Part shown: positions 1-21,103 of the stretch, one piece after another
How positions within the stretch are numbered: the first letter of the stretch is position 1
Layout of the letters: every line of letters begins with the position of its first letter
From: a virus
Taxonomy: Duplodnaviria; Heunggongvirae; Uroviricota; Caudoviricetes
Virus record (IMG/VR): IMGVR_UViG_2541047790_000014
Location: 1 to 29,346 of that record
Length of the DNA stretch: 29,346 bases
Strand: one strand, 5' to 3'
Notes under the pieces: generated by a model
Seen by the model: the letters and a program-made list of their open reading frames with translations, nothing else
Database searches by the model: none
What the model was told of the DNA's origin: nothing
Translations under genes and position numbers: made by a program

Positions 1-1173
1 TCAGGCCTTATGGTGGAAATAATCACTCAGGCGGGAAAACATGCTGCCTTCCCCGACAGATTCCAGGGTAACCAGCGGCCAGTGCGCCACCTGTTTATCA
101 CGGTCGTAAAGTTCAATTTCCCCTACCCGCTGATGGGCGCTAATTGGCGCGGTGAGTTCTTTACCATCAAGGGTATATTTGGCTTTGATATGTGGAATTT
201 CGGCTTTCGGTAGCACCATCCAGAACTCTTGTTCCGTTCCCAGGGCGATATTTTCTTTATCACCATACCAGATGCGTTCCGTACCGACCTTTTTCCCACG
301 GTGCAAAATTTGCACCGTAGTAAAGTTTTGTTGCCCCCAACGCAGTAATTTTCTTGCCTCTTCCTCACGACCTTTTGCGCTGTCAGCCCCCATTACCACT
401 GCAATGAGGCGACGCTGCCCGTCTACAGCCGAAGCAATAAGATTAAACCCGGCACCAGAAGTATGGCCCGTTTTCAGGCCGTCAACATTCATGGTTTTAT
501 CCCACAATAACCCGTTACGGTTTTGCTGGGTGATACCGTTCCAGGTGAGGCTTTTCTCACTGTACATATGATAAAACTCGGGCTCGCCGTGGATGATAGC
601 GCGAGAAAGCACGGCTAAATCATAAGCCGAGCTATGCTGGCCAGGTGCATCCAGACCATGCACTGTTTCAAAATGCGTATCCTTGAGATGCAGCTTCTCG
701 GCATAGTTGTTCATCATTTCAACAAACTGCCGTTGCCCACCGGCAATATAGTCAGCCAGAGCAACACAAGCGTCATTTCCGGAATCCACAATTAAACCAC
801 GGCTTAAATCACGTACCGATACGCGATCGCCCTCTTTCAAAAACATCAGTGAAGAACCGACAAACACCGGATTATCTTTCGCCCACGCATCGCGCCCCAC
901 GGTGACAATATCGTCTGGCGTAATGCGATGACTATCGATAGCGCGATCCACGACATAGCCCGTCATCAGCTTTGTCAGGCTGGCGGGATTGCGCTGTTGA
1001 TGCTCATTACCCGCGGTGAGAATCTGACCGGTGGTGTAATCCATCAATACCCAGGACCCGGCATGAATCTCTGGAGGCTGAGGTGAAAAAGGAATGTTTT
1101 CCGCCGCAAAACCAGACGATAAATTAAAAACGAACAAAGAAGCAGCAATAATAAGACGGCGTTTCAACAGCAA
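1..1173 (-). CDS. dacD: D-alanyl-D-alanine carboxypeptidase, class C low-molecular-weight PBP (PBP6b-like)
   Basis: Complete 390-aa ORF with signal peptide and the three serine-PBP motifs (SLTK, SGND, KTGH). Gene identity as dacD is from memory of the E. coli protein and the divergent sbcB-like start 202 bp upstream. Confidence 0.8.
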   Translation of the reverse strand: MLLKRRLIIAASLFVFNLSSGFAAENIPFSPQPPEIHAGSWVLMDYTTGQILTAGNEHQQRNPASLTKLMTGYVVDRAIDSHRITPDDIVTVGRDAWAKDNPVFVGSSLMFLKEGDRVSVRDLSRGLIVDSGNDACVALADYIAGGQRQFVEMMNNYAEKLHLKDTHFETVHGLDAPGQHSSAYDLAVLSRAIIHGEPEFYHMYSEKSLTWNGITQQNRNGLLWDKTMNVDGLKTGHTSGAGFNLIASAVDGQRRLIAVVMGADSAKGREEEARKLLRWGQQNFTTVQILHRGKKVGTERIWYGDKENIALGTEQEFWMVLPKAEIPHIKAKYTLDGKELTAPISAHQRVGEIELYDRDKQVAHWPLVTLESVGEGSMFSRLSDYFHHKA

Positions 1174-1375
1174 ACCCTCAGGTGTTTCAAATAGCTGTTC
1201 TTTTTACGGAAATACTTATGAACTGGCTGGAATAAAGTGCAAGAAAATGTGACTACTATCTCATTTTTATCTGACATGATCTGTTGCCACTCGCTGCCAA
1301 ATTGTCGCGCTAAAGCTGATTAGCACGGTGATATTTGATACTCTGGCAGACAGCAGAAATAACGGATTTAACCTA

Positions 1376-1438
1376 ATGATGAATGACGGTAAGCAACAAT
1401 CTACCTTTTTGTTTCACGATTACACGCACCCCACCTGA
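1376..1438 (+). pseudogene. sbcB: Truncated 5' fragment of exonuclease I gene (first 16 codons, then divergence and stop)
   Basis: ATG ATG AAT GAC GGT AAG CAA CAA TCT ACC TTT TTG TTT CAC GAT TAC encodes MMNDGKQQSTFLFHDY, matching my recollection of the SbcB N-terminus. The next expected residues (ETFG, including catalytic Glu17) are absent and the frame stops at 1436-1438. Spacing to dacD is as expected for the host locus. Confidence 0.5.
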
Positions 1439-1477
1439 GAACAGCCATGAGTAAGGGTTTCATGGTTTATGATTTTA

Positions 1478-1499
1478 GTTTGGTACACAATTTGGTACA
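1478..1499. repeat. Tandem direct repeat TTTGGTACACA x2, candidate integrase binding sites near the prophage-host junction
   Basis: Two adjacent 11-bp copies about 45 bp inside the apparent junction. The repeat resembles the remembered sbcB core sequence TTTGGTACGCAC that is missing at the junction. Confidence 0.4.
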
Positions 1500-1958
1500 C
1501 ATCGCAATTTTCACATCACCGGGCAGTCATAAAACTCACCATAACGCTCTTCGTTGATGATGTACGTGATCACCAAAAATATCGCATCCGGACTAGTTCC
1601 ATCTTCATGCGTAGGTATCTGTTCATGCCTACCTGTCTGCAAATCCTAAAGATGAGATTTTAGAGTTTTGGGATATCTTTTTATCCTCAGTTCTCTATCC
1701 ATTCTGCAAACCAGTAACGAACCATCACCGTGTGATAGTGAGGCATCCGCTACGTTAAGCGCAGAGAAATGATGCAGTGGTGGGCGGATTGGATTGATGA
1801 AAAGGTGGTGTGACCCGCCTTAACAACTATCGAATATCACAAAACCTTGCAATCCAGTGCAAAGCTTTGTGTGCAAGAATATTTTCTCACCAACATCATG
1901 ACAACATTATTCTCTTAGTTAATTACATCGAAAAATCATACATAACCATATTAATTAA

Positions 1959-1985
1959 CAATCTGCGCCTTTTCGACGCAGATTT
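1959..1985. terminator. Putative terminator hairpin downstream of the tailspike gene
   Basis: Perfect 7-bp inverted repeat ATCTGCG / CGCAGAT with a 9-nt loop, flanked by AT-rich sequence, just past the tailspike stop at 2007. Confidence 0.35.
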
Positions 1986-2006
1986 CATATTGTTTTATGT
2001 TGAATA

Positions 2007-4394
2007 TCATATTTTATTTAAGTTATTCTTTTTTAATGTCATCTCTAGTTCTTCGATACGTCTTTCTATATTATCAATTCTCTCCCAGCATTGCTGAATT
2101 GATTTAACAATAGGTGGGATAAACTCATCGTAACCGAGTGAGTAAACATCATCCCCACCATTTTTCAAGTGATGCTGTAGCCCACCGAACTCAACACCTA
2201 ATTTTTCACACAGTTTCAATACGTCCTGTGCAATAAACCAGTGATGGTATCGTTGACGTTTTTTACTGCCGTCAGGAGTTTTCTGCACTACTTCAAGATA
2301 TTTTTCTTCGACATTCTCAATAGCTGATATAGTAATTCCATCAACATCTCGTTCTACTTTTTTTGGTACAATTCTTGTCTTTTCAATAACATCAATATAA
2401 TCATCACGCATATCCCAGCGACCATCGACAGGACGAAGCCCAAGGATAAATTCAATCCCCAGCAAAGTATCTCGGATATCTGTTTTATCACGCGCATCAG
2501 ATCTGTTTTGCACAGTTCCATATACATACGTCGTTGTGGAAGAATTGCCAAGCTGCACCTGATTACTTCCAGACACTCTTGCATCATTGCCAACAGTTGT
2601 TGTGTTGGTAAGTGATGATGTGCTTTCCCCTGATTGAGTTAATCTACCTGAATTATGTCCAATAGCCGTGTTTAATGCGCCGGTTGTATTTGTGACAAGA
2701 GAGCCAGACCCAATTGCAACGTTACTGCTTCCCGATGTTGTTCCTTTTAATGCCTGCTGTCCAACCGCAACATTATTATCACCCGTTGCTGCTATAAGTG
2801 CCATGTGACCAATAGAAACGGTAAATGAACCTAGCGTTTGAGTTTCACCGCATGCACCATAACCAATTACAACAACATTATCTGTAATTGTTGACTCGGT
2901 TGCCGCTCCAGCACCAATAACAACGCTTTCATTCCCGGCAAGATTCTTGCGCATTGCGAACATTCCAATGCCAACATTATCATGCCCAGTCCCTGTACCT
3001 GCTGCCTCCGCAGCACCAAGACAGTTTCCCGCTCTGTAGCCAACCATGGTGTTATTTGAACCAATAGAGAAGTCTCCGGCAAAAGAGCCTACGTATACAC
3101 TATTAGACTGTGAGTAATCTCCAGGATTTCCATTCGCCCGATATCCTACTGCAACTGTATAAATAGTATCTGGAGCCTCAGCCATGGCCTCAAAGCCAAC
3201 TCCAACGTTATATCTACCGCCCTTAACTTTTTCTCCTGCACCAAGTCCGAAGAATGAGTTATAGCTCCCGGTTGTTAGCCACTCGCCAGCAACAGAACCT
3301 ACAGCAGTGTTTCCTGTTCCAGTACATCGATACAAAGTCAGGAAGCCAACTCCGGTATTATTATTTCCTGAAATATTACTCATCAATGATTTTGACCCAA
3401 TGGCAGTATTGTTAACACCATCGGTCAGATCCTGTAACGCTCGCGGGCCAAATGCTGTATTATCGTAACCCTTTGGCGCTGTTGTTGGATCTGGTAACTC
3501 CGGGGTTAGTTTTTCACCACCGCCACCATTGGCACAAAGATTGTAAGATCGAATAAATTCAGCCACTGGCCCAAGTTTTAAATAACCATTGGCAATATTA
3601 ATTCTGACACTTACATTAACTGAGCTACCAGGAGCTTCTATTGTCCTGTCATCAACCCAGGTAAAACTCTGTGGTATCCCGTCATAAGTTAATGTCACAT
3701 CTCCTTTATCATTATAATTATAGAACAATGTATAACGCTCATTTATAGATTCAGAACCTGATGATCCTCCTCTCCTCCACCACTCTGCATTATCAAAAAT
3801 AAGTAATCCTGGACCATAATATTTTCCCTTCTGACCCAAGATCATAGGAGTCGATAATCGCCACCTTCCCTCTGGAACATATACATCGATCCCAGTTCTT
3901 TCTGCGTCTTTAAACGATTCATCACATAATAAAACACCACCTTCAACAGCACCAAATCCACGAACATCACCATTATCTCTCCATCGAGCCATTTGCAACT
4001 CAGGATACTTCTTAGCGCCATCAATGTCTTCTAATTGGTCCCGCAGCTGATCAGGATCATACTTCAGTACATTAGGAAAATAGAACTGCTGAGCACCGTA
4101 AGCATCATATACAGCCATAGAATGGCCTTGCACAGTTACGAACTTGGCAATCTGTCCGTTATATACAGGGTAACCAGCAGCGTTAAGGATGATTGGTTGT
4201 GAAACAGGAATGTGAGAACCATCTTCACTCTCTACATAAACCTGAATCTGGTTTTCAGGATTTACCGGGTCAGTGTCAATTTTACCGATATAAATTTTGC
4301 CATTAGCTACGGCTTTAAAAGAGCGAGCCATAGTGAAGAGTTGCGATGGCATCCCAATTACAACATTTGGGGTTATATTAGGCATATTAGTCAT
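2007..4394 (-). CDS. Tailspike protein: P22-gp9-like head-binding N-terminal domain, repeat-rich receptor-binding domain, C-terminal intramolecular chaperone (peptidase S74-like)
   Basis: N-terminal stretch [25 protein letters not shown]...[13 protein letters not shown]...LKYDPDQ closely resembles the P22 tailspike head-binding domain. The centre has many NTAIG/NVGVG-type repeats. The C-terminus has the Ser-Lys dyad context SDARDK typical of self-cleaving fibre chaperone domains. Start placed at MTNMPN (4394); the ORF extends to 4478 but that extension lacks an RBS. Confidence 0.85.
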
Positions 4395-4730
4395 CCTGTT
4401 TGAAAACTTAGAAATTGAATAAAAAGGAATGACTGTAGACAAAGATGCAAGTGTTTTGAAAAATAATCTTCTATCCATTTTAAATCATGCAACACAAACA
4501 AAACGATTATTTTACAACGTGCACGAATCTTGATCAACAGGCATATATTTTAATTGCTGAATACGTCACTTAAAAATGACAAGTACTACTTTTATTCCTA
4601 TCGTCCATGATTTTAATTTTCAAATATTATTAAATAACAATTCCTATTTATAATATCTGTCATTTAATTTGCTCCAGATACAAGTAATCGCTGCAGCATG
4701 ACTGCAGTGATACATAATCAATCATACAAC

Positions 4731-4809: not shown

Positions 4810-5061
4810 ATGGGAAGAGATGACCCGCAATTTAATCTGCGGCTACCTTACGAATTAAAGGAAAAACTAAAACAGCGAGCCAAATCCAATGGCCGCTCTC
4901 TTAATTCAGAATTAGTTCAGATAGTGACTGATGCTGTATCAAAGCCATCCAAAATTTCAGGCTATCGAGACGATGCGGAACGCATCGCTGATGAGCAGTC
5001 CGAACTTGTTAAGAAGATGGTGTTTGATACGCTGAAGGATTTGTACAAAAAAACCACCTGA
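4810..5061 (+). CDS. mnt: Mnt repressor (ribbon-helix-helix, Arc/MetJ family)
   Basis: 83-aa protein MGRDDPQFNLRLPYELKEKLKQRAKSNGRSLNSELVQIV...ELVKKMVFDTLKDLYKKTT is near-identical to my recollection of P22 Mnt. RBS GAGG 8 nt upstream. Confidence 0.9.
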   Translation: MGRDDPQFNLRLPYELKEKLKQRAKSNGRSLNSELVQIVTDAVSKPSKISGYRDDAERIADEQSELVKKMVFDTLKDLYKKTT

Positions 5062-5160: not shown

Positions 5161-5406
5161 ATGGCGAAAAAACCAGGTGAAAACACAGGAAAAACGGCGG
5201 AATATACCAAGAGGTTGGCCCACGCGGCGGTAAGAAAGACAATTTTGCCACCGTCAAGGACAACGAAAGGCTTCCGCCAACAACAAAGCCAGGTCATGGC
5301 TGGGTATTGGATAAGCGAACTCCAGACAGCAAAAAGTAATACTCAAGCCGGGTCACTCCGGCTTTTTGATATGTCGCTCGCAGAACTCAACAAGCCTGCT
5401 CATTAA
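5161..5406 (+). CDS. Hypothetical small basic protein (accessory locus, sieA-equivalent position)
   Basis: 81-aa ORF starting MAKKPGENTGK with RBS GAGG at 5151-5154 and a promoter-like sequence upstream. The track ORF starts earlier at 5146 without an RBS. No recognisable family. Confidence 0.4.
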   Translation: MAKKPGENTGKTAEYTKRLAHAAVRKTILPPSRTTKGFRQQQSQVMAGYWISELQTAKSNTQAGSLRLFDMSLAELNKPAH

Positions 5407-5718
5407 GTAGCAGTAAGTCTCGTTGGCTCTTCCTGGTTCAACATCAACGCCGACCCTTGAGCAGATATCGAATGCCATGTGAGCGCACTCATGGGCAATA
5501 GTAGATAGTTTGCCATTGAACACGCCTATCACATGCAAAACACCATTCTCGCTGCTCATTGTATGAGACGCTCCGTTGGCGTCCGAGTCATGCACGTCAA
5601 CGCCAAGTTTTTGATGCAGGCGTTGCCATTCTGGAAAGTCTCTACAAAACACAATTGTACCGCTCTCAAAGAGCGGAACGAGCATCTTTGGTACGTTTCC
5701 AATGTTAACTTTTTTCAT
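5353..5718 (-). CDS. Hypothetical protein with HExxH motif (possible small zinc metallopeptidase-like protein)
   Basis: 121-aa ORF from MKKVNIGNV, containing HECAH. The longer track ORF (start 5871) has no RBS. The 3' end overlaps the convergent 5161 gene by 54 bp. Family not recognised. Confidence 0.4.
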   Translation of the reverse strand: MKKVNIGNVPKMLVPLFESGTIVFCRDFPEWQRLHQKLGVDVHDSDANGASHTMSSENGVLHVIGVFNGKLSTIAHECAHMAFDICSRVGVDVEPGRANETYCYLMSRLVEFCERHIKKPE

Positions 5719-5755
5719 GGTATCCTGCTCAAAACTAAGGAGGTTGGAGGTTGGT

Positions 5756-6085
5756 GTGCTTGAATGGTTTCTGTTGGCTGCATTAGTCGTTTCTGGTTGG
5801 GTGTATGAGTATCGAATGCACTCTCTAACAAAAAAAATAGGAATTCTAGAAAACGAATATTGGGCTCTCAAATCCTCACTGGAACGTGAGCAAGGAGACT
5901 TAAAAATCTATCTGTCTAGCATTGAGCGTTCTATAGAGAGCCTAGAGGATAAAGTTAATCGTATAAAGAATGAGGATATTCATGATATTAAGGACGATAT
6001 ATCCTTCTTAAAATCTTGGTTGAAAAATGTTGGTAAAATTGCCACATCAACACGAGATAAGCTCAATCCATCCATGGATGATTAA
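5756..6085 (+). CDS. Hypothetical membrane-anchored coiled-coil protein
   Basis: GTG start with GGAGG 5 nt upstream. N-terminal hydrophobic helix (FLLAALVVSGWVY) then a charged heptad-like region (LENEYWALKSSLEREQGDLKIYLSSIERSIESLEDKVNRIK). DNA is AT-rich relative to the flanking structural genes. Confidence 0.5.
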   Translation: MLEWFLLAALVVSGWVYEYRMHSLTKKIGILENEYWALKSSLEREQGDLKIYLSSIERSIESLEDKVNRIKNEDIHDIKDDISFLKSWLKNVGKIATSTRDKLNPSMDD

Positions 6086-8254
6086 TTACTCCTGTGCTAT
6101 TCCGCTTAGCGATGCCACAATTCCAGCCCTTGCTAAACGCTGGAAATCTTCGTTTCCTAGTGCATCGCGTATTGCTTTTACGGCGGCCTTATTTGCCATA
6201 AATCTGCGTTCAGCCGCCGCTAATGCGCCATCACTTGCCCCAACCTTAACTGCCTTTGTTGCCTCTTGAACAGCCTTTTCAATAGCGTAACGACCGCTTC
6301 TGGTTGCGGATAATTTCGCTATCGATCCTTTTGCTATTGCATCAATTGCTCCACCTGCAGCGCCACCCACTATTGCTCCAATAACACCACCTCCAGAGAA
6401 CCCTGCGATAGCGCCAGCGGTTGGAAAAGCGCCAGACAATACGCTCTCTAAAACTGGATGAAGGCCCTTCTCAAGAGTGCTAATGGCTGGCATAGAGCGC
6501 CCTGTCTGTTCAACATATCGAAGTGGCTTTGTTGCTGCTCGTGCAAGTTCTCCGTATGAACTTGTAATCCTGCCAAGTTCTGGAGAATATCGACTAATTG
6601 CCTTCACGTTTTGTGGGGTAAGAATAGTCGCGATATGCTTAATTCCAGCCCCTTCAGACTTACCTCCGCGCATCCCTTGCGATACCGTATCTTGCAATAT
6701 TGATGCAATTGCTGGCGCGCGTTCAGACTCAGGTAGGGCGCTTATTATTTTATGAAACTGACCTGTTCCACTTTTTGCTGAGCCCTGTAACGCCTTAGAG
6801 CCATTAGTTACCAACTGATCAGTTGCAAGGTCTCTACCAAACGCTGCTTCAGCCTGTTCTTGTGCTGTAAATCTTGCCTTTGACAGATCATTAGCTTTTT
6901 GCCAGTCATCAAGAAAACCGCCATTTTGAGCCATTATGCGCATATCTTCCGTTGCTGCATCACGAAGCTCAGCCATGCGCCTTGCCGTATTTGCCTCACC
7001 AGACCTTATATACTTCTGCTCAGCGTCAGCAAGTTTACTTCGCCATGCCTTCATGGCATCAAACGTGATTCCATTTTTACCAGTTTTAGCATAAGCAGAT
7101 GCGAATTGTTTCATCTCAGGAGTTAGCGGCATGCCAGCCAAAATATCACCCTGAATTGTAGCGTTCAGGTTTAACATTCTGGCCTTTGCGTCAGGCATCG
7201 TGGAGCGGACGCTATCCCATGCGGCCTTTTCTGAATTTTTCATTTTATCAATACTTGCCAAAACCCTTTGTTTTATGGCTGCACTTTTTTCTGATGCAGT
7301 TCCTGCTTCAGCCCCAAACTCATCCAATGCTGAGTTAAATTTCGACTCTATTTCACTGAATGCTTTGGTGTGTGCATCCTGTGTAATTCCGGGCTTTGAC
7401 GCCAGAATCCCCTCCGCCTGAGCAAGACCACGACTACCTGATCTCATGCCAGGAGTTAATGCGTTGATATCTATTCCAGCGGTATCTGCTGCTTTTGCTA
7501 TTTCGTCTGACACGTTAGCTGACTGTCTGGCAATAATCTCTCTTCCTGTACCAGACTTTGCCATTTTCGAAACATCAGCAGCGGAATTTATTGCCCCGCC
7601 ACCAAGAACTTGAGGTGATTTAGAGGTTAAGAGCCTTCCAGCCCCAGAAAGTATCCCCTGAGCACCAATATTGATACCACCGTTAATGGCAGCATTTTGT
7701 GCAAAGTCGCCCTCCTGATTTGCAGCATCAGCAAGAGAACCTGCAATCATGTTTCCTGCGGAACCGATATCTCCAGCGAGCTTTGCTGGCGCTCCAGCAG
7801 CTTTTGCCGCTGTGCCAATTGGCAGGAGATACCCACCAATTGTTTCACCGGCTTGCGCGTAAGGGTCTGTCGGTCGATCGACAGGGCGATAAACATCATC
7901 CAAAACCTTTGGGCCACCAAGCCCCTGGCTGATTGCATTAATCAGACTTGCGCCACCCTGTAACACGTCAAATGGTATGTTTACCAGACCACGACCAGCC
8001 TGTTCTGCAATTTGCCCTGCACTTTGACCACCAGTGAGCCAATCGCCAGCTTGTTGCATCAATGATGGTTCTTCTTTCTGCTGCTGAGGCGGAGGGTATG
8101 CTGCATAAAACTGATCTCTTGCTTCAGCCCATTTGTCACCAGCCTTAGGGGCAACAACCTCATCAAAATATTGCGCTTGAGCCTGTGCTTTCTGTTCTTC
8201 AGTTAACGCCTGATACTGTGGAGAAGCGATAACGTCTTTCCATGCTTTAGCCAT
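6086..8254 (-). CDS. Ejection (internal virion) protein, P22 gp16-like
   Basis: 722-aa Ala/Gly-rich protein at the position of P22 gene 16, immediately after the gp20-like gene with an ATGA start/stop overlap. Assigned by synteny and composition. Confidence 0.7.
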
Positions 8255-20617: not shown

Positions 20618-21103
20618 TTATTTCAGTTCGTTACCAGGCATTTCTTTTAGCTCTTTCAAATGACAACGATTGAGGCTAAACCACTCCCCGTGCGACCTAT
20701 AGTTGTAATATTTTTGGTGCAATTTGGTTTCAAGCTCTCTATCGGACGGAATCTTTGCAATTAGATTTAGCTTCCCACCACTCATGCGAGATATCTCTGA
20801 AATTCGTTTATTAACCCTGCGACTAAACCCTATTTTTGTTAGCCCACTATCTTCAGCATGCAGAACGTACACATATGATTTTTGCGAAGCACTGGGTGCG
20901 ACTTTGTTGTAATTAATCATGTCAAACATGAAGCCTTGCTTTAGCAAAGTTTCAAAAAAGATAGAATTAACACACCCATTCCTTCTCAGCTCTGCACTTA
21001 GCTTGTCAATTTCCTCTATGATGTCGCCAGACCCCTTTCCACTTATAAGAAAATCTTGGTACATGCGACCAATTCTTGAGGTAATTTCAACAAAGTTATT
21101 CAT
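20618..21103 (-). CDS. T5orf172 (GIY-YIG-like) domain protein, accessory gene
   Basis: 161-aa protein whose C-terminal half (YVYVLHAEDSGLTKIGFSRRVNKRISEIS...LETKLHQKYYNYRSHGEWFSL) matches the T5orf172/MUG113 pattern (YVYVL, KIG, R, E..LH, GEWF). AT-rich, weak RBS, set between a terminator and the terminase operon. Confidence 0.65.
   Translation of the reverse strand: MNNFVEITSRIGRMYQDFLISGKGSGDIIEEIDKLSAELRRNGCVNSIFFETLLKQGFMFDMINYNKVAPSASQKSYVYVLHAEDSGLTKIGFSRRVNKRISEISRMSGGKLNLIAKIPSDRELETKLHQKYYNYRSHGEWFSLNRCHLKELKEMPGNELK

What the first reader, a model, noticed from the sequence alone, without database searches (positions are those of the whole stretch)
2007..4394. Chimeric tailspike: P22-type head-binding domain joined to a repeat-rich receptor domain and a self-cleaving chaperone domain
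Only the first ~115 residues resemble the P22 gp9 head-binding domain. The rest is rich in NTAIG-like fibre repeats and ends in an S74-like intramolecular chaperone (SDARDK dyad context). The chaperone-encoding 3' end (about 2007-2500) is markedly AT-rich, consistent with module exchange, so receptor specificity likely differs from P22/Sf6/HK620.
Basis: partly seen in the sequence, partly recalled or inferred. Interest (0 to 1): 0.6.

Follow-up and report, generated by a model that had tools for sequence, protein, structure and literature searches.

The report
Mosaic prophage tailspike with self-cleaving chaperone
This is the host-recognition spike of a P22-like prophage in E. coli ST131: a standard P22 attachment domain joined to an uncharacterised repeat domain shaped like a bacterial adhesin head, ending in a self-cleaving folding chaperone; it is a good example of phage module swapping but not a new principle.

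Summary

- **Head-binding domain:** residues 1-116 match the P22 head-binding domain (Pfam E 1e-63).
- **Junction:** residues 117-150 are a cassette shared with the CUS-3 endosialidase and other coliphage receptor-binding proteins.
- **Cap domain:** residues 151-295. Its first ~55 residues resemble the cap of beta-helix glycosidases.
- **Repeats:** residues 296-628 are 18 units of 17 aa. The model's best fold matches are trimeric-autotransporter adhesin heads.
- **Chaperone:** residues 629-792 are an S74-type chaperone. Ser629 and Lys634 are conserved at the spacing known for this family. The four solved domains of this type are the top four fold matches.

The AT-rich 3' end reflects amino-acid content; GC3 does not change there. 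Exchange of the chaperone segment is nevertheless real: window 2063-2432 is 98% identical to another phage's gene that is otherwise about 65% identical.

The architecture has a precedent in CUS-3. The repeat domain is widespread but uncharacterised. The receptor, any enzymatic activity and the cleavage itself remain untested.

The parts
2007..4385 (-). Tailspike gene (792 codons plus stop). It is the last gene of a P22-like prophage.
   Evidence: ORF. The RefSeq CDS for the identical sequence starts here. RBS spacing favours 4385 over 4394. phrog_4636 'tail spike protein' scores 780 bits.
4038..4385 (-). Residues 1-116: P22-type head-binding (tail-attachment) domain.
3936..4037 (-). Residues 117-150: helical junction cassette ([34 protein letters not shown]) shared among many coliphage receptor-binding proteins. 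It is a likely recombination joint.
   Evidence: The CUS-3 endosialidase tailspike is 86% identical over residues 1-151, then unrelated. The cassette is also found in Kayfunavirus, Justusliebigvirus and Kagunavirus RBPs, K5 lyases and endosialidases. It also follows non-P22 N-termini in homologues. It matches PDB 9vvr_A. AF2 predicts helices at 113-144.
3501..3935 (-). Residues 151-295: non-repeat beta domain. Its first ~55 residues resemble the N-terminal cap of beta-helix glycosidases and phage appendages. It contains the highly conserved motif [14 protein letters not shown].
   Evidence: AF2 pLDDT is ~86-94 here. A family profile matches only the cap segment of GH55 glucanase 3eqn (2.4e-6) and phi29 gp12 3gq7 (2e-5). 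PF12708 hits homologues at profile positions 2-64 of 213 only, and does not hit the query.
2502..3500 (-). Residues 296-628: 18 units of ~17 aa (x-G-x-N-N-T-A-x-G-x-x-A-L-x-x-x-T). This is a predicted beta-solenoid and the presumed receptor-binding shaft. Its last unit runs into the conserved stalk [21 protein letters not shown] before the cleavage site.
2499..2501 (-). Codon of Ser629, the predicted scissile and nucleophilic serine.
   Evidence: Conserved in at least 90% of 47 homologues. PF13884 profile position 1 aligns here. The equivalent serines are T5 pb1 Ser1264, MyRF S587 and endoNF S911.
2484..2486 (-). Codon of Lys634, the predicted general base of the Ser-Lys dyad (Ser+5).
   Evidence: Invariant in 47 of 47 sequences and 22 of 22. 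The Ser+5 spacing matches S1264/K1269, S587/K592 and S911/K916.
2010..2501 (-). Residues 629-792: S74-type C-terminal intramolecular chaperone domain (19.2 kDa). It has a long beta-hairpin (664-701) and a C-terminal helix (752-791).
2063..2432 (-). Recently exchanged segment inside the chaperone-coding region (residues 652-774).
   Evidence: There are 7 mismatches in 370 nt against L003, while the upstream 1,500 nt are 57-83% identical in 90-nt windows, mostly 60-70%. At protein level this is 100% against ~72%.
1424..2006 (.). Prophage end between the tailspike stop codon and the chromosomal dacD/sbcB junction (about window 1423).
   Evidence: Prophage-free E. coli genomes match window 1100-1423 only, annotated dacD | sbcB.

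Best explanation
The gene encodes the trimeric receptor-binding protein of a P22-like (Lederbergvirus-type) prophage carried by some non-H30 E. coli ST131 strains. It is assembled from exchangeable modules.

- **Attachment:** the N-terminal head-binding domain docks the protein to the tail hub, as in P22, Sf6 and CUS-3.
- **Joint:** a short conserved helical junction serves as the joint at which receptor modules are swapped between phage genera.
- **Receptor binding:** the receptor module is a cap-like domain followed by a beta-solenoid of 18 seventeen-residue repeats. Its predicted fold is closest to the heads of bacterial trimeric autotransporter adhesins. This part presumably contacts a host surface structure, most likely a polysaccharide of the ST131 host.
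- **Chaperone:** the C-terminal 164 residues are an S74-type intramolecular chaperone. It should nucleate trimerisation and folding of the beta-structure through its C-terminal helix and beta-hairpin. Once the trimer is correctly folded it should cut itself off N-terminal to Ser629, using the Ser629-Lys634 dyad. That would leave a ~66-kDa mature protein in the virion and release a 19-kDa fragment.

Shown here: the domain identities, the repeat, the conserved dyad, the fold matches, the modular distribution and a recent recombination event. Inferred: trimerisation, cleavage, the receptor, and whether binding is enzymatic or purely adhesive.
For: - **Head-binding domain:**
- **P22-like virion gene neighbourhood:** portal, P22-type coat, gp4, gp10, needle and ejection proteins.
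- **Modularity:** the same receptor module (residues ~125-792) follows PF09008, PF18668 or PF03906 N-termini, or very short ones, in homologues. The junction is shared with CUS-3 at 86% identity and with many coliphage RBPs.
- **Repeat:** period-17 repeat at z 8.6.
- **Repeat and S74 travel together:** much longer proteins built of the same repeat also end in PF13884, in 3 of 5 scanned.
- **Recombination within the chaperone:**
- **Published precedent:** CUS-3 is a P22-type anchor with a foreign catalytic domain (PMC5380687).
Against: - No experiment bears on this protein or on any close relative found here.
- PF13884 covers only profile positions 1-32 of 58 and is sub-threshold in the full-length scan.
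- The profile E-values against PDB ICA domains are not individually significant, at 0.023-0.82.
- The AF2 models are monomers of a presumably intertwined trimer. pLDDT is 57-91 in the repeats, and below 50 on average in the block around the cleavage site.
- The repeats give no Pfam hit and no sequence-profile hit to any TAA head, so the adhesin-head likeness rests on a predicted fold.
- The characterised P22-like tailspikes named in the cited review (P22, Sf6, HK620, CUS-3) are glycan-cleaving enzymes (PMC5380687). A purely adhesive receptor domain would therefore be unusual.
- The prophage may not be inducible.
Confidence: 0.8

Rival explanations
1. The receptor module is an enzyme, a glycan depolymerase or deacetylase, like the characterised P22-like tailspikes. 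The cap-like domain and the solenoid would form a catalytic groove that cuts or modifies the O-antigen or capsule. The adhesin-head resemblance would then be only a generic beta-solenoid likeness.
Against: Homology to glycosidases stops after the ~55-residue cap. The query itself has lost the GAKGDGxTDD cap motif and gives no PF12708 hit. No catalytic domain was recognised by Pfam, NCBIfam or the PDB searches. The strongest fold matches to the repeats are non-enzymatic adhesin heads.
Confidence: 0.3
2. The C-terminal domain is retained rather than cleaved. It would act as a permanent trimerisation or distal binding domain, because the S74 match is partial.
Against: Ser629 is conserved in at least 90% of 47 diverse relatives, and Lys634 and the neighbouring Asp630 and Asp633 are invariant. 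The spacing is the one proven catalytic in T5 pb1, MyRF and endoNF. That pattern is expected for a catalytic site, not for a mere linker.
Confidence: 0.1
3. The gene is a decaying remnant of a defective prophage, or a bacterial adhesin captured by the prophage, and no longer serves as a virion tailspike.
For: Only 18 of 5,426 complete E. coli genomes carry the full gene. No cultured phage in the phage collection has this receptor module behind a P22 anchor. One JGI record names a relative 'trimeric autotransporter adhesin'.
Against: The ORF is intact and sits in a complete, syntenic P22-type morphogenesis and lysis cluster. It keeps a full head-binding domain. It has no membrane-anchor domain, and no signal peptide from the annotated start. 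Sixteen copies are virtually identical and two are 98-99% identical, with the frame preserved. Relatives sit in other phage contexts next to holin and endolysin genes.
Confidence: 0.07

Closest known systems
Endosialidase tailspike of coliphage CUS-3 (siaK1)
   Same: It is a P22-like temperate podovirus of extraintestinal E. coli. Residues 1-151 (head-binding domain plus junction) are 86% identical. The layout of a P22 anchor joined to a foreign receptor module is the same (PMC5380687). That CUS-3's endosialidase also carries a C-terminal chaperone domain is my own recollection of the endosialidase literature; it was not tested here and is not stated for CUS-3 in that paper.
   Different: After residue 151 there is no detectable similarity. 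CUS-3 carries a sialidase catalytic domain, whereas this protein has a cap-like domain plus 17-residue repeats. The receptor here is unknown, whereas for CUS-3 it is K1 polysialic acid.
P22 gp9, Sf6 gp14 and HK620 gp9 tailspikes
   Same: They share the head-binding domain (E 1e-63; the PDB alignments show 88% identity to Sf6 and about 65-70% to P22) and the position of the gene in the P22-type virion cluster.
   Different: DNA similarity to HK620 and Sf101 stops at query nt ~348. Protein similarity to P22 stops at about residue 117 and to Sf6 at about 131. From general knowledge, those tailspikes have right-handed beta-helix endoglycosidase domains and no S74 domain. This protein has a different receptor module and an S74 domain.
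S74-type intramolecular chaperone domains: K1F endoNF (3gw6), T5 pb1 (4uw8), GA-1 neck appendage (3gud), MyRF ICA (7dc3)
   Same: The domain is C-terminal. The Ser-x4-Lys dyad is present with Arg at +3. A beta-hairpin is followed by a long C-terminal helix. These four are the top four fold matches.
   Different: Sequence identity is only 14-17%. Pfam matches only the first half of the model. The hairpin (664-701) is long. Cleavage has not been tested.
YadA-like heads of trimeric autotransporter adhesins (BpaC 7o23, UspA1 3pr7, CbpF 9u93, YadA 1p9h, BoaA 3s6l)
   Different: The repeat unit is 17 residues; the 14 residues of YadA heads is from general knowledge. There is no Pfam or profile-level sequence match. 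There is no membrane anchor, and no signal peptide from the annotated start. The domain is flanked by phage domains. It is a resemblance of form, not family membership.
Uncharacterised phage proteins with the same repeat plus S74 unit (Bacillus phage SPO1 gp2.52; Bacillus phage Mater 'tail spike'; Aeromonas phage 62AhydR11PP; phrog_4636)
   Same: They are 30-37% identical over residues ~234/359-769, including the chaperone. phrog_4636 matches at 780 bits.
   Different: They have different N-terminal anchors and hosts. As far as the searches here show, none has a described structure or receptor.

Membership tests
P22-type tailspike head-binding domain (PF09008) | Sequence match above the Pfam gathering score. 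| tested here: met
   212.9 bits against a cut-off of 24, E 1.1e-63, covering the full profile 1-113.
P22-type tailspike head-binding domain (PF09008) | Fold of the solved P22 and Sf6 head-binding domains. | tested here: met
P22-type tailspike head-binding domain (PF09008) | Encoded in a P22-like virion gene cluster (portal, coat, gp4, gp10, needle, ejection proteins). | tested here: met
   RefSeq annotation of the identical locus. ORF layout in the window.
P22-type tailspike head-binding domain (PF09008) | Physically binds the gp4/gp10 tail hub. | not testable with these tools
   Needs virion cryo-EM or a binding assay.
Peptidase S74 / C-terminal intramolecular chaperone domain (PF13884) | Sequence match above the Pfam gathering score. 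| tested here: inconclusive
   The full-length protein scores 19.5 bits, below 22. The isolated C-terminal 193 aa score 24.7 bits, above 22, at E 2.9e-5, but cover only profile positions 1-32 of 58. Twenty of 22 relatives match, the best at 1.6e-12.
Peptidase S74 / C-terminal intramolecular chaperone domain (PF13884) | Conserved Ser-Lys catalytic dyad with Lys five residues after the scissile Ser. | tested here: met
   S629 is conserved in at least 90% of relatives and K634 is invariant in 47. The spacing equals S1264/K1269 (T5 pb1), S587/K592 (MyRF) and S911/K916 (endoNF).
Peptidase S74 / C-terminal intramolecular chaperone domain (PF13884) | Fold of the solved chaperone domains (hairpin 'tentacle', C-terminal coiled-coil helix). 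| tested here: met
Peptidase S74 / C-terminal intramolecular chaperone domain (PF13884) | Autoproteolytic release after trimer folding. | not testable with these tools
   Needs expression with S629A and K634A controls, and mass spectrometry.
Trimeric autotransporter adhesin head (YadA_head / Hep_Hag, PF05658) | Sequence match to the Pfam repeat model or to solved TAA heads. | tested here: not met
   No such Pfam hit at E up to 1 on the full protein or up to 5 on the repeat region. A family profile of the repeats finds no TAA chain in the PDB.
Trimeric autotransporter adhesin head (YadA_head / Hep_Hag, PF05658) | Beta-roll fold of the head. | tested here: met
Trimeric autotransporter adhesin head (YadA_head / Hep_Hag, PF05658) | C-terminal beta-barrel membrane anchor and a secretion signal. 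| tested here: not met
   The C-terminus is an S74 domain. The N-terminus is a phage head-binding domain. The protein is not a TAA.
Right-handed beta-helix depolymerase tailspikes (pectate-lyase-like, PF12708) | Match across the beta-helix catalytic domain. | tested here: not met
   The query gives no PF12708 hit. Homologues match profile positions 2-64 of 213 only. PDB profile matches are limited to the ~55-residue cap.
Endosialidase tailspikes (CUS-3 / K1F type) | Sialidase catalytic domain. | tested here: not met
   Similarity to CUS-3 ends at residue 151.

The most novel reading that the evidence does not exclude
The receptor module is a non-enzymatic, adhesin-type beta-solenoid. It would represent a very large, structurally undescribed class of phage fibres that are always capped by an S74 chaperone, and that share a fold, and perhaps ancestry, with the heads of bacterial trimeric autotransporter adhesins. 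In a P22-like podovirus, this would mean adsorption to a smooth, encapsulated ST131 host without the glycan-cleaving tailspike that characterised relatives use.
Probability: 0.2. Interest if true: 0.6.

Novelty: new variant of a known kind. Interest (0 to 1): 0.38.

Why it matters
Tailspikes set phage host range. This one belongs to a prophage of E. coli ST131, the pandemic extraintestinal lineage, so its receptor module is a candidate reagent for typing or targeting those strains.

More generally, the 17-residue-repeat solenoid plus S74 chaperone is very common: about 28,000 sequence clusters match residues 117-628. Yet it has no Pfam model for the repeats, no solved structure and no known receptor. 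A single solved example would annotate a large block of phage 'dark matter' and would test whether phage fibres and bacterial adhesin heads are related.

The locus also gives a clean, datable example of recombination inside a chaperone domain, and of a junction cassette reused across phage genera. One study reported conserved junction motifs as absent from the Lederbergvirus prophages it examined (PMC10408124). Whether this cassette is that motif was not tested.

Tried and rejected
- **AT-richness as a module boundary.** Rejected. GC3 is flat across residues 117-792 (0.23-0.30), and the raw-GC drop tracks amino-acid composition. Comparison with L003 suggests the low-GC3 chaperone segment is at home in this gene and foreign in L003.
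- **NCBIfam scan of the full protein.** No family found.
- **Sequence-level link between the repeats and TAA heads.** None found by Pfam or by a family profile against the PDB. The top hits were a lipase and triosephosphate isomerases, which are chance matches.
- **Full pectate-lyase-type beta-helix.** Rejected. Only the cap segment matches.
- **A terminator after the gene.** None was found directly downstream. The nearest terminator-like site, at 1443-1467, is on the other strand.
- **The in-frame upstream extension (4386-4478), which looks like a twin-arginine signal.** No NCBIfam signal model hit. It is not conserved upstream of the CUS-3 gene. RBS spacing favours 4385. It was treated as chance.
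- **Literature searches for a phage fibre with a YadA-like or Hep_Hag head.** Nothing relevant in the held library. This does not prove that none exists.
- **tRNA at the integration site.** None in the window.
Full report
**Locus and context.** The window begins with the 5' part of dacD on the minus strand (1-1173). The rest is a P22-like prophage. RefSeq annotation of an identical locus in E. coli ZH063 lists Q antiterminator, holin, lysozyme, terminase, portal, P22-type coat, gp4, gp10, needle knob, DNA-transfer proteins and an Arc-family repressor. The last gene before dacD is a 'phage tailspike protein' (ORFs). Prophage-free E. coli genomes match only window 1100-1423, where dacD abuts sbcB, so the prophage end lies near 1423. 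The window contains no tRNA. SaT040 and ZH063, two carriers, are ST131 strains with fimH22 and fimH35 (PMC4933990). Another carrier is labelled O25:H4. Only 18 of 5,426 complete E. coli genomes carry the full gene, while 1,122 carry something similar to its 5' part.

**The gene.** The ORF is open from 4478 to 2007. RefSeq starts it at 4385 (MPNITPN..., 792 aa). I use 792-aa numbering throughout.

DNA similarity to HK620 and Sf101 stops at query nt ~348, the end of the head-binding domain. Similarity to CUS-3, Gally and some others continues to nt ~414-431. At protein level CUS-3's endosialidase tailspike is 86% identical over residues 1-151 and unrelated afterwards.

Residues ~117-150 (…[27 protein letters not shown]…) recur in RBPs annotated as endosialidase, K5 lyase or tail fibre, in Kayfunavirus, Justusliebigvirus, Kagunavirus and Phapecoctavirus phages. 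They also occur behind quite different N-termini in metagenomic homologues, and in the solved E1004 tailspike 9vvr. This is a junction cassette. Conserved motifs at the anchor/receptor boundary have been proposed as recombination hotspots in lytic genera and were reported absent from the Lederbergvirus prophages of one data set (PMC10408124). Whether this cassette is that motif is my inference from the overlap of genera; I did not test it.

**Receptor module.** A search with residues 121-792 found 2,322 relatives among the candidates scored. The module follows PF09008, PF18668 or PF03906 N-termini, or very short ones. That is direct evidence of module shuffling.

Residues 151-295 form a confidently modelled beta domain, with pLDDT about 86-94. 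A family profile matches the PDB only over the first ~55 residues. This is the 'cap' that opens beta-helix glycosidases and the phi29 gp12 appendage: 3eqn at 2.4e-6 and 3gq7 at 2e-5. Pfam PF12708 hits homologues only at profile positions 2-64 of 213 and does not hit the query. The motif [14 protein letters not shown] is nearly invariant. Its role is unknown.

No sequence-level relationship to TAA heads was detectable. The repeat is 17 residues long, not the 14 I recall for YadA heads. There is no membrane anchor. So the protein looks like a TAA head but is not a TAA.

An exhaustive search with residues 117-628 gives 27,980 cluster representatives at E up to 1e-3, 8,627 at up to 1e-10 and 353 at up to 1e-30. 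Many are 1,000-5,300-residue proteins built of the same repeat. Three of five scanned end in PF13884, and none has a Pfam model for the repeat. No cultured phage in the phage collection covers 80% or more of the protein. The nearest cultured-phage relatives of the repeat plus chaperone part are Bacillus phages: SPO1 gp2.52 at 37% and Mater at 30%. phrog_4636 ('tail spike protein') matches at 780 bits, so the family is already catalogued, though not characterised.

**Chaperone domain.** PF13884 is sub-threshold in the full-length scan, at 19.5 against 22 bits. It passes on the isolated C-terminal 193 residues, at 24.7 bits and E 2.9e-5, and 20 of 22 relatives match. A profile of the domain puts MyRF ICA (7dc3), the GA-1 neck appendage (3gud) and the S16 long tail fibre (6f45) at the top of the PDB, though with non-significant E-values.

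R628, D630, D633 and K634 are invariant and S629 and R632 nearly so in 47 relatives. Lys lies five residues after Ser, as in the experimentally established dyads of T5 pb1 (S1264/K1269; PMC4690869) and MyRF and endoNF (S587/K592 = S911/K916; PMC8326128). The long hairpin (664-701) and C-terminal helix (752-791) fit the 'tentacle' and coiled coil described for T5 pb1. Cleavage before Ser629 would give a 66.1-kDa mature chain and a 19.2-kDa fragment. Cleavage itself is inferred.

**Composition and recombination.** GC3, however, is 0.28 against 0.30. The difference therefore comes from the protein sequence, which is D/I/K/E-rich in the chaperone and G/T/A/N-rich in the repeats. The gene as a whole has the lowest GC3 of the 24 ORFs compared in the window. 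It is 0.30, against about 0.5 for most prophage genes, though a few others also fall below 0.45. That fits a receptor module imported from a lower-GC gene pool.

Independent evidence shows that the chaperone segment is exchanged. The RBP gene of an unrelated phage contig (L003; different anchor and different neighbours) is 57-83% identical in 90-nt windows, mostly 60-70%, from gene nt 420 to 1953. Mismatches fall at nearly every third base just before the breakpoint. From nt 1954 to 2323 (window 2063-2432) it is 98% identical, with 7 mismatches in 370 nt. At protein level this is 100% against ~72%. In L003 that segment is a compositional outlier, with GC3 0.27 against 0.44 for the rest of the gene and 0.54-0.61 for its neighbours. 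Here it is not. L003 was therefore more likely the recipient.

**Comparison and verdict.** The architecture of a P22 anchor, a foreign receptor module and a self-cleaving chaperone has a close precedent in the CUS-3 endosialidase tailspike (PMC5380687). That paper supports the anchor-plus-foreign-module part. The presence of a chaperone domain on CUS-3 is my recollection and was not tested here.

What is less ordinary is the receptor module: an S74-capped 17-residue-repeat solenoid with an adhesin-head-like predicted fold. It is abundant in sequence space but has no structure, receptor or activity assigned. Whether it cleaves glycans like other P22-family tailspikes or only binds is open. I give the enzymatic rival about 0.3.

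I rate the finding a new variant of a known kind, of moderate interest.

Noticed in passing
window 4386-4478 (minus strand): The tailspike ORF is open for 31 more codons upstream ([31 protein letters not shown]). By eye, the RRLFFK stretch resembles a twin-arginine signal motif. A distant relative, P0016, starts with MKFTRRHFFRFLLPSALIGFS and has no phage anchor. No NCBIfam signal model hit either sequence, and the stretch is not conserved upstream of the CUS-3 gene. It is probably chance here, but the P0016 case might be a secreted, non-virion version of the module.
   Followed up: partly
window 1100-2006: The prophage is inserted between dacD and sbcB. Prophage-free genomes match only up to about window 1423. 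A few genomes share up to about 1799-1873, apparently other prophages at the same site. No tRNA is involved.
   Followed up: partly
window 20618-21103 (minus strand): A GIY-YIG nuclease gene with low GC (0.389, GC3 0.40) sits between the lysis genes and the small terminase. It looks like an inserted homing-endonuclease-type moron.
   Followed up: no
window 6086-8254 (minus strand): This 722-aa 'hypothetical protein' follows the two DNA-transfer proteins, in the position of a third ejection protein. It is Ala/Gly-rich and, like the tailspike, has low GC3 (0.34) compared with the other virion genes.
   Followed up: no
window 3756-3797 (residues 197-210 of the tailspike): The motif [14 protein letters not shown] is almost invariant across relatives that share only 40-70% identity elsewhere. 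It has no assigned function and could mark a binding, catalytic or trimer-contact site.
   Followed up: no
proteins P0123-P0251: Thousands of very long proteins, up to about 5,300 aa, consist of 7-24 matched stretches of the same 17-residue repeat. Three of five scanned end in an S74 domain, and one ends in an Lcl C-terminal domain. Their origin, phage or cellular, was not examined.
   Followed up: partly
L003 6001-8541: The relative P0002 carries the same receptor module behind a different N-terminal anchor. It lies in a phage contig followed by holin, GH19 endolysin and spanin-like genes, next to AraC- and LysE-family host genes. The host species was not identified.
   Followed up: partly
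window 4810-5061 and 5353-6085: Between the tailspike and the ejection genes lie an Arc-family repressor gene and two small genes of unknown function on opposite strands. One of them (5756-6085) is low in GC at 0.367. This is the counterpart of the P22 immI region, but no antirepressor (ant) gene is annotated here, unlike in CUS-3.
   Followed up: no
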